A DNA stretch of 64,000 nt from an uncultured Pseudomonadales bacterium (GCA_964509365.1 CAZDWN010000004.1:32907-96906), one strand, 5' to 3'. Numbered from the stretch's first letter, positions 36,637-40,257 are shown. The notes: a model not told the origin generated them from the sequence alone. Translations and numbers: made by a program.

Positions 36637-39600
36637 ATGCCAGACTTCGAAAGATTTAATGGACCAGAGTTCACTGCTAAGCTAGCTGATGTGGAGCAAT
36701 TTGTGGTCCCAGATACGTTGTTACCTGAGATACGTACTCGCTTCGTCGCCGTTCTTGAAGGGATTGATGAGAGATTTTTTGACGAAAATTTTAACGCCAG
36801 AAATTTGCCGGATGCAGTAAAAAAGAGAGCGATTACATCTATCGAAGAAGCTCAAGAGAGTTTTTCGGACGTATTTATTTATCCATCTAAATACATTGAT
36901 GAAAGTAAATTTGAGCCGGTTGAAGGCGATACACCTGAGACAATTGCTGCAAAGAAGAAGAGCAAGGAAGATGAGCTCGCTACTATAGTAGAGCTCCTTA
37001 TGAATGTCTCGGAAACCTATAGAGTAGCACTTGAATCTTCATTGAAAAAATCAGATGGAGCACTTCCTCCGCAACCTCCTGTCGAAAAAGCAACTTCGCA
37101 AGAATATTCCGATGACGCTTTCAAAAATGAAATCATAAAGAAAACTGGTAACCCCAATTTCTTTACAGAATTAGCTGACGTGAACTCAATTTTGGATTCG
37201 GGCAATATAAACGCGTCCTACCCTCGAAAACGCATGGGACAGCCAGATCTCTGGAATACGGATAAACCCCAACTCTTAGAACGAGTAATCCGTGATTATG
37301 ATTTAGTCAAAAAGTTGCTCGACCAAATTAATCAAGTTGCCGCATATGTCGGGTCCGATGATGTGGGAATGAATAAACTCAGATTCATAAATAACGACGT
37401 CAAAAAAACTCTTGAGCCTCTCGAAGTCAAACTTCGCGATAAGAAAGATTCGCTTCAACTAGATTTAGAGAAAGATGTCGTTTCCTCTTGGGAGCGAAAT
37501 CCAAATGGAAAATTGCTTTTCGCTACTCAAGAAAAATTGATACAGCGAGTGGAAAGCAACTCTGGTTTTTCGAGCCTTGCTGAAGCTCAAAAATTGGAGA
37601 TCGATCTTCTCGGTGAGTATGCTGCTGCTACAAACAATTTGACCACGGCTATTCAGACTTTATCCGAGCAAAATCCTCCTCCAGGGACTGTCGATAGACT
37701 ACGATCAGAGTTGAATTCAAAGTTTATTGATAGCAAAACTCGTATTTTCACGGAACTCCACAAGCAAGCCTTAGACAATTGGAAGAATCAATACCTTGAA
37801 TCCGTGGTATTTAAGTCAATTCGAGGTTTGGAAAGCCTCACACCTGGTACGCTGGCAGAATTCAAAAAAAACTACAGTGATAGATCAACTGAAATTGCGA
37901 AACTGAAATCAGACAAGGCGAACACTCTCGCAAAAATTCCAAATGATCCGACTATTCGAACTGAAGCCGATACATATTTTGACGCCAAGATCGCTGGCAT
38001 GGAAGCAAGCCTGAAATCGTTGACATCCTCACAATATGACCATTGGCTCAAAAACGAAGCCTCTGAATTAAATAATCCTATGAAGGTCGTAAAAGAAGCG
38101 CGCGATAAAGGTAAGACCGTCGCAGCTGGTGGTTCGGAAAGTGATGTGGTGGCGGCAATCGCTGAACTAGATAAAGCGGATGGCCTTATCGAAAGCACAC
38201 ACAAAATCCATCAAAACGAGTTTATTGATGTGACCGACCACAAAGACAAGCTATCGAATTGGGTTACTGATGAGAAAGCAAAAAACGAGACAGTTAAAGA
38301 AATGCTCCGCAAACGTAAAACGCAGGCAGCAACTGAAACGGTAAAGATGGCTGTGGATGCAAAGGTTGCTTCCGCTACGGCGACCATTAAATTCATTAAC
38401 GACGAATCTTTTGATTTGAACGCTGCAAAGGTCATGGGCCTTGATCCACTTCGTAAGCTCAGGTCAAAGTTAAAGACAGAGCTCAATGATGTCCCTGCGT
38501 CGGAGATGTCTTCACTCCATTACAAGGAAGCATTATCAAAGATTGACTCATTTGAAGTCGAAGTAGAGTTTCATGAAATGGAATTCAGCAAGGTCGCAGA
38601 TGAGATATTGGCTACGGCAAACATTCCAGTAAGAGATTTTCTCAATGATACCGCTGTCGGAGGTTTAAATAATGACAGACACGTGCGTCTTCTAAAAAAA
38701 CTAAAAGAGTATTGGATATCTGGGCCAGAAGCAGGTAAGGAGCGAGATTACAAAAAACAGCGTACTCGAGTTTTTGCTCACATGGCAATGATAGAAACGG
38801 ATATTGGACGCAAGCACCCAGCTGGACTAGCAGAAAAAATATTTGAATTTCAAAAAAAGTATGGAATTACTCGCGACGAAATTACTGAAGGAATCACATC
38901 CTTCCCAGGTGTCATTGAAATGTTAGACGAAATGATAGAGATCGTAGCCAAGCCCAATAAAGATCCATTGACTGGGAATGTAAATCCTTTGGCCTATGAT
39001 AATTTACTCAAGAATCCAGATTCGGAAACTGTGCTAAAGAATTTTGCGAAAGACAAGTTTTTACAAGGTGGGAAGGGTGGTGGAAGTTTGCCTCCAGAAT
39101 ACTTTAAAGCCGCTTGGGACCTCTATTATGCATATGACTTGCTCTCAATTTCGTTAGCCAAGAGACAAAGAGAAACTCAAACTCGAACTCACAATCAGGC
39201 ATACTCGGTAGATCCAAATAGTATTACTAGACCAATGCATTTTGCATTCCAAGAGCGAAATAAGGGGGGGAAAGTAATGGTTGGGAATGTCCATATTTTA
39301 GAGTTTGTCGACAAACTGCCGCCAGACATTAAAGATGATCCCGTCAATGGTTGGTATGGAGTTAAGGACTTTGTTGACCCTGTCACACATGAACATGCCT
39401 TGGGACTTGAAACTATTCAGAAACTTATCAAACTGAGGACTGCTGCCATTTATCCAAATCGTGAAGATCCTGTCACTCATCTGCCATCAACAGATTCTGC
39501 TGTTACGCTTTCTGCTCTGAAACCCAGTGATTGGAGTGCCCCATGGTTCCCAGACAACTTCAACTACCTCACAGAGCCGGATTTGAACAAAATACCTGCT

Positions 39601-40257
39601 GACGTCGACACCTTTGTTACAGCAAGAGACGCTTTCGGCGAAATTATAAATGAATACATTCTGAGCGATCAAGAAGGTTTCTCTGATCCTGAACACCTCT
39701 TCATAAAGGGCGGAAAATGGGAGAAGTTGGGTACAGCAATTGGAAAAGTTGTGGTTGTCGACGGTAACCACATGCACATGATTGATCGAATCCTCACGAA
39801 TTGGATGGGAATGTCAGCAAGTAAATTTAAGAATACCTCGCTCAATGCTCGTCACGAATTAGATGAAAAATTCAGAGAAGCACTTCAAATCGCAACTCGA
39901 TACAAAAAATTGCCTGGACTGATGCTTTTGAAGGAATATTTGTCATATCCTGGTGTGAAAAGAGATGGAACTTTTTGGTCAGATCAAAAAACCTACGTCG
40001 CACCATTATTGAGACCATATGCGAAAGGAGAGCTTGATGGAAGCTCAAATGCATATGAGGCCCGCAAGGCATACTTAGATCTGTGGATAACAGCCGTAAG
40101 GCATAAGAGTATCCCCGACCTCACTCAACGAGGTGTTTTTGATGAAGATATTCAGATTTACAGAGAAGCATTGGGAAGTAAATTCCCTCCGGTTCAGCCA
40201 CAGCGCCCTCTACCAAAAGTTGTGCTTCGCAACACAGCCGTGAAAAAAGCCACATAA
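36637..40257 (+). CDS. Giant (1206 aa) soluble, highly charged hypothetical protein. No signal peptide, no TM, no P-loop.
   Basis: Single uninterrupted ORF. Visibly more AT-rich than its neighbours. Coiled-coil-prone K/E/D-rich sequence. No recognised domain. Confidence 0.65.
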   Translation: MPDFERFNGPEFTAKLADVEQFVVPDTLLPEIRTRFVAVLEGIDERFFDENFNARNLPDAVKKRAITSIEEAQESFSDVFIYPSKYIDESKFEPVEGDTPETIAAKKKSKEDELATIVELLMNVSETYRVALESSLKKSDGALPPQPPVEKATSQEYSDDAFKNEIIKKTGNPNFFTELADVNSILDSGNINASYPRKRMGQPDLWNTDKPQLLERVIRDYDLVKKLLDQINQVAAYVGSDDVGMNKLRFINNDVKKTLEPLEVKLRDKKDSLQLDLEKDVVSSWERNPNGKLLFATQEKLIQRVESNSGFSSLAEAQKLEIDLLGEYAAATNNLTTAIQTLSEQNPPPGTVDRLRSELNSKFIDSKTRIFTELHKQALDNWKNQYLESVVFKSIRGLESLTPGTLAEFKKNYSDRSTEIAKLKSDKANTLAKIPNDPTIRTEADTYFDAKIAGMEASLKSLTSSQYDHWLKNEASELNNPMKVVKEARDKGKTVAAGGSESDVVAAIAELDKADGLIESTHKIHQNEFIDVTDHKDKLSNWVTDEKAKNETVKEMLRKRKTQAATETVKMAVDAKVASATATIKFINDESFDLNAAKVMGLDPLRKLRSKLKTELNDVPASEMSSLHYKEALSKIDSFEVEVEFHEMEFSKVADEILATANIPVRDFLNDTAVGGLNNDRHVRLLKKLKEYWISGPEAGKERDYKKQRTRVFAHMAMIETDIGRKHPAGLAEKIFEFQKKYGITRDEITEGITSFPGVIEMLDEMIEIVAKPNKDPLTGNVNPLAYDNLLKNPDSETVLKNFAKDKFLQGGKGGGSLPPEYFKAAWDLYYAYDLLSISLAKRQRETQTRTHNQAYSVDPNSITRPMHFAFQERNKGGKVMVGNVHILEFVDKLPPDIKDDPVNGWYGVKDFVDPVTHEHALGLETIQKLIKLRTAAIYPNREDPVTHLPSTDSAVTLSALKPSDWSAPWFPDNFNYLTEPDLNKIPADVDTFVTARDAFGEIINEYILSDQEGFSDPEHLFIKGGKWEKLGTAIGKVVVVDGNHMHMIDRILTNWMGMSASKFKNTSLNARHELDEKFREALQIATRYKKLPGLMLLKEYLSYPGVKRDGTFWSDQKTYVAPLLRPYAKGELDGSSNAYEARKAYLDLWITAVRHKSIPDLTQRGVFDEDIQIYREALGSKFPPVQPQRPLPKVVLRNTAVKKAT

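What the first reader, a model, noticed from the sequence alone, without database searches (positions are those of the whole stretch)
36637..40257. AT-rich 1206-aa soluble orphan protein embedded in the T4SS locus: candidate effector or horizontally acquired cargo
This single ORF has visibly lower GC than its flanks; runs of A/T and K/E/D codons are noticeable by eye.

It encodes a protein with no signal peptide, TM helix, P-loop or any motif I can assign.

It sits between a secreted LTD protein and the VirB6-like gene.

Large, compositionally atypical, domain-less proteins next to secretion machinery are classic candidates for secreted substrates or effectors, or for recently acquired DNA.
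Basis: partly seen in the sequence, partly recalled or inferred. Interest (0 to 1): 0.65.

Follow-up and report, generated by a model that had tools for sequence, protein, structure and literature searches.

The report
Hyper-divergent helical protein beside T4SS channel
This is a 1,206-residue, cysteine-free, all-helical protein of a Patescibacteria (Microgenomates-type) chromosome that always sits tail-to-tail with the multi-pass membrane gene of the type IV secretion/pilin locus and evolves much faster than most of its neighbours; that makes it a candidate cargo or partner of a secretion system whose substrate is unknown, not a piece of foreign DNA.

Summary
The ORF (36637-40257, +, 1206 aa) is real. 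It is soluble, has no cysteine, is rich in K/E/D and has no hit in Pfam, NCBIfam, PHROGs, PADLOC or PDB. Its GC is low (0.420 against 0.459 for the window). It is the lowest-GC 3.6-kb stretch of the window, but the effect is modest (z about -1.5 among ORFs) and its synonymous codon usage is typical. It is not an orphan: an exhaustive HMMER search found eight distant relatives (19-27% identity), all in Patescibacteria-type contigs. Where gene context could be read, the gene lies at the same place, tail-to-tail with the ~600-aa multi-pass membrane gene that follows a VirB2-like pilin array. Five more loci of the Microgenomates/Pacebacteria type carry other large, Pfam-less, Cys-poor soluble proteins in that slot. 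These are unrelated or only partly related in sequence, and 9 of 10 slot genes have lower GC than the rest of their locus. The N- and C-terminal modules are mosaic. The first 130 residues and an extreme C-terminal tail (PLPx[IV][IV]xR...[DN]TxxKK) are conserved. AlphaFold gives a spectrin-like helical rod followed by an unmatched C-terminal domain. Horizontal acquisition is rejected. The best reading (about 0.4) is a dedicated T4SS substrate or host-interaction factor. The main rival (about 0.3) is a cytoplasmic T4SS accessory subunit.

The parts
36637..40257 (+). Target ORF: 1206 aa, soluble, 0 Cys, net charge -21, all-alpha
   Evidence: AlphaFold models
36637..37803 (+). N-terminal module 'type A' (aa 1-389), shared with P0003 and P0008 only. 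The first 130 aa are 33-35% identical, above the whole-protein 23-25%.
   Evidence: BLASTP (P0001-P0008, aa 1-389, E = 4e-21)
37264..38346 (+). Central rod of long helices (about aa 210-570), spectrin-repeat-like, pLDDT 70-90
38368..40242 (+). Conserved C-terminal domain 'type 1' (aa 578-1202), shared with P0002-P0007 and P0009; no known fold match
39133..39195 (+). Most conserved motif block, YDLLSISLAKRQRETQTRTHN (aa 833-853). Invariant residues: D834, Q844, T847, T849, R850, H852, N853.
39730..39780 (+). Second conserved block, GTAIGKVVVVDGNHMHM (aa 1032-1048). Invariant residues: G1036, G1043, H1045.
40204..40254 (+). Extreme C-terminal tail RPLPKVVLRNTAVKKAT (aa 1190-1206). It matches the family tail PLPx[IV][IV]xR..[DN]TxxKK. 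The last 30 aa carry net +5 in a -21 protein, and the model confidence there is low.
40326..40340 (+). Terminator-like hairpin in the 94-bp gap between the two convergent genes
   Evidence: consensus scan only; the number of sites found equals the chance expectation
40352..42313 (-). 653-aa multi-pass membrane protein, the invariable tail-to-tail neighbour. It has more than 532 relatives in Microgenomates-group genomes. It is a putative T4SS channel subunit; VirB6 membership is unproven.
42323..45793 (-). 1156-aa protein with an N-terminal hydrophobic signal and 29 Cys, conserved between the pilin array and the membrane gene
45800..49409 (-). Array of eight VirB2-like T4SS pilin genes (PF18895)
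35594..36571 (-). LTD-domain protein with an N-terminal hydrophobic segment, divergent from the target. It is absent at this place in L002 and L003 and present in the P0009 contig.
32294..35597 (+). tRNA_bind, FtsH and 5'-3' exonuclease: housekeeping genes syntenic upstream of the target in the window, L002, L003, L009 and the P0009 contig
23038..26975 (-). VirB4 ATPase, TrsD-like protein and PrgI/VirB3-like protein: the core T4SS genes on the other side

Best explanation
The gene encodes one sub-family of a hyper-divergent, mosaic class of large cytoplasmically made all-alpha proteins. This class fills a fixed 'slot' of the chromosomal T4SS/pilin locus in Microgenomates-type Patescibacteria.

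The most likely role is a dedicated substrate of that T4SS. On this reading the protein is made in the cytoplasm without a Sec signal. It is recognised through its conserved ends: the N-terminal ~130 aa and/or the C-terminal PLPx[IV][IV]xR...[DN]TxxKK tail. It is then handed to the VirB4-powered channel, which includes the adjacent multi-pass protein, and exported to the cell surface or into the host bacterium. There the spectrin-like rod and the conserved C domain act. The invariant Q-x2-T-x-T-R-x-H-N loop lies in that C domain.

Host-driven diversifying selection would explain the extreme divergence, the module shuffling and the drift to low GC.

Shown here: the protein's anatomy, the synteny, the evolutionary rate, the mosaicism and the composition. 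Inferred: export, the signal function of the tail, and any activity.
For: 1. Linkage. Contexts read for five of the eight relatives, four as loci with DNA (L001-L004) and P0009 as a gene table only, plus the window itself, show the gene tail-to-tail with the ~600-aa multi-pass gene. P0005 and P0007 lie on contigs that also carry that gene, judged by matching contig lengths. Five further loci (L007-L011: one unnamed assembly, Cerribacteria, Woesebacteria, Pacebacteria, and one named only 'Patescibacteria group') hold another large Pfam-less soluble gene in the same orientation, 33-260 bp away.
2. Rate. Against the syntenic loci L002 and L003, identities are: FtsH 78-79%, exonuclease 77-78%, orthologous pilins 55-71%, multi-pass protein 49-54%, the 1156-aa protein 33-49%, and the target 23-24%. 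Over 28 genome pairs the target averages 24% global identity against 42% for the multi-pass neighbour, and it is the more diverged of the two in 27 of 28 pairs.
3. Mosaicism. P0001 is N-type A + C-type 1. P0008 is N-type A + a different C. P0002, P0004 and P0007 are N-type B + C-type 1. The L008 slot protein is N-type B + a different C. The L007/L009 slot proteins show no similarity even by hhalign (probability 0.1%).
4. Export-compatible chemistry. There is no signal peptide or TM segment. The target has 0 Cys where 12.4 are expected (P about 4e-6). The 14 slot proteins together have 12 Cys in 15,219 residues (0.08% against 1.0% in other ORFs).
5. Conserved ends. The tail motif is present in 11 of 12 slot proteins against 1 of 104 other ORFs, including the otherwise unrelated L007/L009 proteins. 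The last 30 aa carry net +5, and residues 1093-1200 have low pLDDT.
6. Literature. The Patescibacteria T4SS is essential for epibiotic growth of Southlakia. It lacks recognisable relaxase and coupling proteins, and its cargo is unknown (PMC10633639, PMC12102498, PMC12857230).
Against: - There is no experimental or direct computational evidence of export.
- The secretion signal of this T4SS class is unknown, so the tail motif was defined post hoc.
- Strict one-copy, fixed-position conservation across deep lineages is more typical of machine subunits than of effectors.
- Another giant protein of the locus, the M23-peptidase-like protein at 27609-31238, is almost as divergent (28% over 304 aa). 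Its counterpart in Southlakia is essential (PMC10633639). Speed of evolution alone therefore does not single out cargo.
- No toxin or enzyme domain is recognisable, and there is no adjacent immunity-like gene.
- No T4CP lies in the window.
- The gene is convergent with, not co-transcribed with, the pilin operon.
- The structure models rest on only 8-9 sequences (pLDDT 61-66).
Confidence: 0.4

Rival explanations
1. It is a cytoplasmic accessory or structural subunit of the T4SS: a helical scaffold or docking platform at the base of the channel. It might stand in for the missing coupling protein, or for the large hydrophilic domains of 'extended VirB6' proteins. It would co-evolve with the variable pilins and is not itself exported.
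For: - The position next to the multi-pass gene is invariable in every locus examined.
- It is a single copy.
- The architecture is a long helical rod.
- The Southlakia T4SS proteins SEML1_0011 and SEML1_0013 carry ARM-like helical hydrophilic domains (supplement of PMC10633639). Extended VirB6 proteins with large hydrophilic domains are known (PMC12857230).
- No T4CP is encoded near virB4 in most Patescibacteria (PMC12102498).
Against: - It diverges much faster than the membrane partner it would have to bind (24% against 42%).
- Whole modules are swapped or replaced by sequence-unrelated ones.
- It lies on the opposite strand from the operon.
- There is no P-loop or any ATPase feature.
- No homologue was detected in Saccharimonadia by exhaustive HMMER.
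Confidence: 0.3
2. It is a cytoplasmic structural (cytoskeleton-like or chromosome-associated) protein unrelated to secretion. Its neighbourhood would reflect only the conserved gene order near oriC.
For: - The helical rod is spectrin-like.
- The gene is co-directional with tRNA_bind, FtsH and the exonuclease, and directly downstream of them in L002 and L003.
- The locus lies near dnaA and dnaN.
Against: - In L001, L007, L008, L010 and L011 the FtsH/exonuclease block is absent, yet a slot gene is still tail-to-tail with the multi-pass gene.
- Housekeeping structural proteins do not normally drop to about 24% identity between genomes whose FtsH is 78% identical.
- They are not normally replaced by unrelated sequences either.
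Confidence: 0.12
3. It is recently acquired foreign DNA (horizontally transferred cargo), which would explain the low GC.
For: GC is 0.420 against 0.459 for the window, and this is the lowest-GC 3.6-kb stretch. The protein has no database annotation.
Against: - Synonymous codon usage is typical (rank 23 of 43).
- There are no flanking repeats, integrase or tRNA.
- Orthologues lie in the same syntenic position in distant relatives.
- The slot gene has lower GC than its locus in 9 of 10 loci.
- Scans of viral contigs found no relative.
Confidence: 0.03

Closest known systems
T4SS protein substrates encoded inside their secretion locus and recognised by C-terminal signals (for example Agrobacterium VirE2/VirF, Helicobacter CagA, Xanthomonas X-Tfe effectors with XVIPCD)
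   Same: It is a large soluble protein without a Sec signal, encoded within a T4SS locus. It evolves fast and has a conserved, partly basic, probably flexible C-terminal end.
   Different: There is no sequence or fold similarity to any of them. No VirD4-type coupling protein lies nearby. The T4SS is of the monoderm MPF-FATA-related Patescibacteria type, for which no signal is known. Export is untested.
Polymorphic toxin/effector systems (CdiA-CT, Rhs, LXG, T6SS effectors)
   Same: Its architecture is mosaic: N- and C-terminal modules recombine among relatives, and divergence is extreme.
   Different: No recognisable toxin domain is present, and there is no small immunity gene downstream: the next gene is the convergent multi-pass protein. 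In this sub-family the C domain is the more conserved part. Only one copy is seen at each locus examined.
Hydrophilic helical domains of 'extended VirB6' proteins and of Southlakia epibionticum SEML1_0011/0013 (ARM-like)
   Same: A large alpha-helical hydrophilic mass is associated with a multi-pass T4SS membrane protein in a Patescibacteria T4SS (PMC12857230).
   Different: Here it is a separate polypeptide on the opposite strand. HMMER found no Saccharimonadia relatives.
Spectrin-repeat rods (spectrin, plectin plakin domain, alpha-actinin)
Variable VirB2-like pilin arrays of Patescibacteria (PMC12102498)
   Same: They are another sequence-variable element of the same locus, thought to track host diversity.
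   Different: Pilins are small membrane/Sec proteins with a Pfam family (PF18895). Orthologous pilins here are still 55-71% identical where the target is 23%.

Membership tests
T4SS translocated substrate / effector | Demonstrated T4SS-dependent export or translocation | not testable with these tools
   This needs secretome, reporter-fusion or fractionation experiments in a cultivated relative.
T4SS translocated substrate / effector | Genetic linkage to a T4SS | tested here: met
   The gene is tail-to-tail with the multi-pass gene of the pilin operon in the window, in the five relatives whose context was read, and in five analogous loci. VirB4, the TrsD-like gene and PrgI lie 10-14 kb upstream.
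T4SS translocated substrate / effector | C-terminal (often basic, unstructured) secretion signal | tested here: inconclusive
   A conserved tail motif is present in 11 of 12 slot proteins against 1 of 104 other ORFs. The last 30 aa carry net +5 and pLDDT is below 50 for residues 1093-1200. However, the signal of this T4SS class is unknown, the tails of relatives are not uniformly basic, and the motif was defined post hoc.
T4SS translocated substrate / effector | Cytoplasmic synthesis without a Sec/Tat signal or TM segment | tested here: met
Polymorphic toxin system | Variable C-terminal toxin domain of a known class | tested here: not met
   No Pfam, PADLOC or PDB hit for the target, its relatives or the slot analogues.
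Polymorphic toxin system | Cognate immunity gene immediately downstream | tested here: not met
   Downstream is the convergent multi-pass gene in all loci, with only 59-81-aa ORFs in L009 and L010.
Polymorphic toxin system | Modular recombination of N- and C-terminal parts | tested here: met
   All four combinations (N type A or B, with C type 1 or a different C) are observed.
Horizontally acquired island / cargo | Atypical codon usage relative to the host genome | tested here: not met
   The excess in synonymous usage ranks 23rd of 43 ORFs. The GC deficit is -0.027 after correcting for amino-acid composition, z = -1.5.
Horizontally acquired island / cargo | Patchy presence, flanking mobility genes, repeats or tRNA | tested here: not met
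   Synteny is conserved. No repeats or tRNA flank the gene.
VirB6/TrbL (claimed for neighbour 40352-42313) | Multi-pass membrane protein with five or more TM helices in a T4SS locus | tested here: met
   About 6-8 hydrophobic segments, next to the pilin array.
VirB6/TrbL (claimed for neighbour 40352-42313) | Match to VirB6/TrbL/PrgH profiles or to solved VirB6 structures | tested here: not met
   No Pfam or NCBIfam hit. One of 32 relatives hits TrbL_5 at E = 0.018. The profile against PDB sequences finds nothing. The literature notes that VirB6 is hard to detect in Microgenomatia (PMC12102498).
Type IV coupling protein (VirD4) / VirB4-like ATPase | Walker A P-loop NTPase domain | tested here: not met
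   No [AG]x4GK[ST] motif and no AAA/TraG Pfam hit.
Conjugative relaxase | HUH/3-His motif with catalytic Tyr in an alpha/beta fold | tested here: not met
   The models are all-alpha. The His-rich block of relatives (HVMSH) is not conserved in the target (HFAFQ). There is no MOB Pfam hit.
Spectrin-repeat proteins | Tandem three-helix bundles of about 106 residues with the family sequence signature | tested here: inconclusive

The most novel reading that the evidence does not exclude
The 'slot' proteins, of which this gene is one sub-family, are the missing cargo or exported tip/translocon component of the Patescibacteria T4SS, a system shown to be essential in Southlakia. On this reading they form a hyper-variable, module-shuffling family. 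Their conserved N-terminal region and C-terminal PLP...DTxEKK tail would be a new kind of T4SS recognition signal. Their variable body would determine which host bacterium the epibiont can exploit.
Probability: 0.3. Interest if true: 0.8.

Novelty: new variant of a known kind. Interest (0 to 1): 0.55.

Why it matters
The T4SS of Patescibacteria is essential for epibiotic growth in Southlakia. It lacks relaxase and coupling proteins, and nobody knows what it moves (PMC10633639, PMC12102498, PMC12857230).

A large soluble protein class that is fixed in position yet diverges very fast, next to the channel gene, is a concrete and testable candidate for that cargo or for a missing cytoplasmic subunit. 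It gives experimenters a defined gene, a defined C-terminal peptide and a defined invariant loop to mutate.

It also shows that a locally low GC in these genomes can mark fast-evolving resident genes rather than imported DNA.

Tried and rejected
- The word-indexed homology search failed to find relatives. It returned only the query itself, both for the single sequence and for the 9-sequence alignment. The exhaustive HMMER search was needed.
- Exact look-up of the window's own proteins gave no record or organism name. The Microgenomates-group assignment therefore rests on the names carried by relatives of the neighbouring gene.
- Pattern scans returned only the already known P0006 locus from GTDB genomes and nothing from JGI metagenome or IMG/VR contigs.
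- There is no paralogy with the two other giant proteins of the window.
- Pfam, NCBIfam, PHROGs, PADLOC and PDB-sequence searches were empty for the target, its relatives, the slot analogues and the family profiles.
- The afdb50 library was unavailable.
- A catalytic reading of the His-rich blocks was dropped, because several of those His residues are not conserved in the target.
- A diversity-generating retroelement and tandem-repeat variation were considered. No template/variable repeat pair or tandem repeats were found.
- There are no internal protein repeats.
- Promoter and terminator scans were at chance level.
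Full report
**Observation**

The ORF at 36637-40257 (+) exists, starts with ATG and encodes 1206 residues. Relatives P0003 and P0008 align with it from residue 1, which supports the start codon.

The protein has no hydrophobic segment (maximum Kyte-Doolittle 19-residue mean 1.11), no P-loop and no HExxH. It has no cysteine, where 12.4 would be expected from the other ORFs (P about 4e-6). Its net charge is -21. K+E+D make up 24.9%, the highest of 43 ORFs. Pfam, NCBIfam, PHROGs, PADLOC and PDB-sequence searches are all empty.

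**Composition**

GC is 0.420, against 0.459 for the window and 0.527 and 0.462 for the flanking genes. At the scale of the gene it is the lowest-GC 3.6-kb stretch in the 64 kb. Only 0.7% of such windows are as low, and all of them overlap the gene.

The effect is nonetheless modest:
- z is -1.5 among ORFs, and six shorter ORFs are about as low (GC 0.427 or less).
- About 0.017 of the 0.044 deficit comes from amino-acid composition.
- A leave-one-out chi-square on synonymous codon usage puts the gene at rank 23 of 43.

The inference of atypical, foreign composition is not supported.

**Surroundings**

The window is a chromosomal region near oriC, with dnaA at 4441-5931 and dnaN at 6241-7344. 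It comes from a Patescibacteria genome.

- To the left lie VirB4 (23038-24966), a TrsD-like protein, PrgI, and a 1209-aa protein at the position of the giant M23 peptidases of related loci.
- Next come tRNA_bind, FtsH and a 5'-3' exonuclease on the + strand, then an LTD protein on the - strand.
- To the right, on the - strand, one operon-like row runs from 49409 down to 40352. It holds eight VirB2-like pilin genes, a 1156-aa protein with a signal sequence and 29 Cys, and a 653-aa multi-pass protein.
- The target converges on the multi-pass gene with a 94-bp gap.

The multi-pass protein could not be shown to be VirB6. No Pfam or NCBIfam hit was found, only 1 of 32 relatives touches TrbL_5 (E = 0.018), and a profile search against PDB sequences found nothing. 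The literature already notes that VirB6 is hard to detect in Microgenomatia (PMC12102498).

**Relatives**

The word-indexed search found only the query itself. An exhaustive phmmer search against 1.84 billion cluster representatives found eight relatives. Their E-values run from 1e-55 to 1e-4, identities from 24 to 41% over the matched stretch (19-25% over the full length), and lengths from 851 to 1297 aa. Each is a singleton cluster. One is annotated as coming from a 'Patescibacteria group bacterium' MAG. The family is therefore real but very rare and very divergent.

A profile of the C-terminal 650 positions, built without the query, hits query residues 578-1202 at E = 7e-57 with negligible bias. 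Membership of the C domain is therefore solid.

**Synteny**

For P0002, P0003, P0006, P0008 and P0009 the gene context could be read. In each case the relative lies tail-to-tail with an orthologue of the multi-pass gene. In four of the five, a ~1200-aa protein and a pilin array follow. In P0002, P0003 and P0009, tRNA_bind, FtsH and the exonuclease lie upstream, as in the window. P0005 and P0007 lie on contigs that also carry a multi-pass orthologue, judged by matching contig lengths.

The multi-pass protein itself has more than 532 relatives at E <= 1e-10. The names attached to them are Cerribacteria, Woesebacteria, Pacebacteria and Microgenomates group. Cerribacteria belongs to the Microgenomates group in the NCBI taxonomy.

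Five of these more distant loci were opened (L007-L011). Every one has a large Pfam-less gene (792-1144 aa) convergent with the multi-pass gene. These proteins are also soluble, K/E/D-rich (22-26%) and have 0-2 Cys.

**Rate**

Against the syntenic loci L002 and L003 the identities are:

| Protein | Identity |
|---|---|
| FtsH | 78-79% |
| 5'-3' exonuclease | 77-78% |
| tRNA_bind | 59-65% |
| Orthologous pilins | 55-71% |
| Multi-pass protein | 49-54% |
| 1156-aa protein | 33-49% |
| Target | 23-24% |

Over 28 genome pairs, global identity averages 24% for the target family and 42% for the multi-pass neighbour. The target is the more diverged of the two in 27 of 28 pairs. Only the giant M23-like protein is comparably divergent (28% over 304 aa).

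**Mosaicism**

- The query shares its N-terminal ~390 residues with P0003 and P0008 (E = 4e-21 to P0008). Its C domain is shared with P0002-P0007 and P0009.
- The C-terminal part of P0008 does not match the C-domain profile or hhalign.
- P0002, P0004, P0006 and P0007 share a different N-terminal module, which recurs in the Cerribacteria slot protein of L008 (E = 6e-15). That protein has yet another C-terminal part.
- The slot proteins of L007 and L009 are 40% identical to each other. They show no similarity to the family even profile-to-profile (hhalign probability 0.1%).
- The L011 protein keeps a weak match to part of the C domain (E = 9e-5 by profile, 2e-7 by BLASTP to P0003).

The slot is thus filled by a class of proteins whose modules are exchanged or replaced.

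**Low GC across the slot**

The slot gene has lower GC than the rest of its locus in 9 of 10 loci, by 0.01 to 0.074. The low GC is a recurrent property of whatever occupies this position. That fits fast evolution under an AT-biased mutation pressure (an inference) and argues against recent import.

**Conserved ends**

Within the family the first 130 residues are 33-35% identical between the query and P0003 or P0008, above the whole-protein value.

The last ~20 residues form a recognisable tail, PLPx[IV][IV]xR...[DN]TxxKK(AA). In the query it reads RPLPKVVLRNTAVKKAT. A loose form of it, ([DN]T or TD) followed within 5 residues by K near the C-terminus, is present in 11 of 12 slot proteins. That includes the otherwise unrelated L007/L009 proteins, which end in ...IPLGTDVK. 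Seven of the eight ORFs of 150 aa or more that match the motif in these loci are the slot proteins themselves, leaving 1 of 104 other ORFs. The motif was defined after seeing the data, so this is suggestive only.

The last 30 residues of the query carry net +5 in a -21 protein.

**Structure**

AlphaFold2 was run with the 8-9 available sequences.
- For residues 560-1206 it gave mean pLDDT 61. Residues ~630-850 form a confident helical domain and the rest is low.
- For residues 1-1200 it gave mean pLDDT 65.7 and pTM 0.33. Residues 1-850 are mostly 70-90 and entirely helical, with 30-45-residue helices between ~210 and 570. Residues 1093-1200 fall below 50.

Fold searches found nothing specific:
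- Foldseek against the PDB gave no hit at E <= 0.001.

The N-terminal and central part is best described as a spectrin-like three-helix-bundle rod. The C domain has no recognisable fold.

The most conserved blocks are residues 833-853 (D834, Q844, T847, T849, R850, H852 and N853 invariant) and 1032-1048 (G1036, G1043 and H1045 invariant). Several His residues conserved in relatives are replaced in the query, so no catalytic assignment is made.

**Interpretation**

Horizontal acquisition is rejected, for the reasons given under composition, synteny and low GC.

What is shown is a large, Cys-free, cytoplasmically made helical protein. It is fixed in position next to the T4SS membrane gene, diverges very fast and is modular, and its termini are conserved.

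The reading I commit to, at about 0.4, is a dedicated T4SS substrate or exported host-interaction factor. The termini would serve recognition, and the variable body would track host diversity. This matches what is missing from current knowledge. The Patescibacteria T4SS is essential in Southlakia, lacks relaxase and coupling proteins, and 'may instead export proteins' (PMC10633639). Reviews speculate about exchange with the host, but no substrate is named (PMC12857230).

The main rival, at about 0.3, is a cytoplasmic accessory subunit. It is favoured by the strict single-copy positional conservation and by the existence of large helical hydrophilic domains in Saccharimonadia T4SS proteins. It is disfavoured by the module replacement and by a divergence much greater than that of the presumed binding partner.

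A secretion-unrelated structural protein (about 0.12) is unlikely. The slot follows the multi-pass gene even where FtsH and the exonuclease are absent.

**Limits**

- No export evidence can be obtained with these tools.
- The structure models rest on very shallow alignments.
- The family census used a single-sequence search with its most divergent member.
- Only one profile-free exhaustive search was allowed.
- The organism could not be named directly.

Noticed in passing
window 45800-49409 (-): There is an array of eight consecutive VirB2-like T4SS pilin genes (PF18895). It lies directly upstream of the 1156-aa Cys-rich protein and the multi-pass protein. An ECF sigma factor gene diverges from it.
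   Followed up: partly
window 42323-45793 (-): This 1156-aa protein has an N-terminal hydrophobic signal and 29 cysteines. It is conserved (30-49% identity) between the pilin array and the multi-pass gene in the related loci L002-L004. Positional counterparts in five other loci carry 24-32 Cys. It has no Pfam or NCBIfam hit. It may be a secreted or pilus-associated component.
   Followed up: partly
window 27609-31238 (-): This 1209-aa protein with three central hydrophobic segments sits where L002, L003 and L008 encode giant Peptidase_M23 proteins. It has no M23 Pfam hit itself and is only 28% identical over 304 aa to the L002 protein. It is a second very fast-evolving giant gene in the locus.
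   Followed up: partly
window 40352-42313 (-): The multi-pass neighbour has more than 532 relatives across the Microgenomates group but matches no VirB6/TrbL/PrgH model. One relative is annotated 'phage tail tape measure protein', probably a misannotation. NCBI's gene call for it is 640 aa, against the 653-aa ORF starting at TTG.
   Followed up: partly
window 4441-7344 (+): dnaA and dnaN lie about 16-19 kb from virB4 (23038-24966) and about 30 kb from the target. This is the proximity of the T4SS to oriC described for Microgenomatia and Paceibacteria in PMC12102498.
   Followed up: no
window 49033-49854 (+) and 48921-49409 (-): The ECF sigma ORF (273 aa from TTG) overlaps the last pilin ORF. 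Orthologues in L003, L007 and L009 are 181 aa, so the real start is probably near 49309.
   Followed up: no
window 23038-25905 (-): The VirB4 function appears split. A 308-aa TrsD-like protein resembling the VirB4 N-terminus lies directly upstream of a 642-aa VirB4/TraG P-loop protein, as reported for Patescibacteria.
   Followed up: no
window 60214-60616 (-): A tmRNA gene carries a long predicted tag peptide, ATKVSNAVAFVKSLFDFSPVTSNVYATA.
   Followed up: no
window 52845-53075 and 53471-53701: There is a 231-nt direct repeat (77% identity) with 626-nt spacing. One copy lies in a very hydrophobic, charge-poor 194-aa ORF (52832-53416). This suggests tandem paralogues.
   Followed up: no
window 11981-17861 (-): A GH18 (chitinase-like) gene lies between two class A penicillin-binding protein genes. 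This is an unusual pairing for a reduced genome.
   Followed up: no
L007 12462-13526, L009 13272-14285, L011 12368-13627: In loci with the non-homologous slot proteins, a second Cys-poor, very K/E/D-rich (28-29%) protein of 337-419 aa lies directly upstream of the slot gene on the same strand. It may be a partner or chaperone. The window has no equivalent.
   Followed up: no
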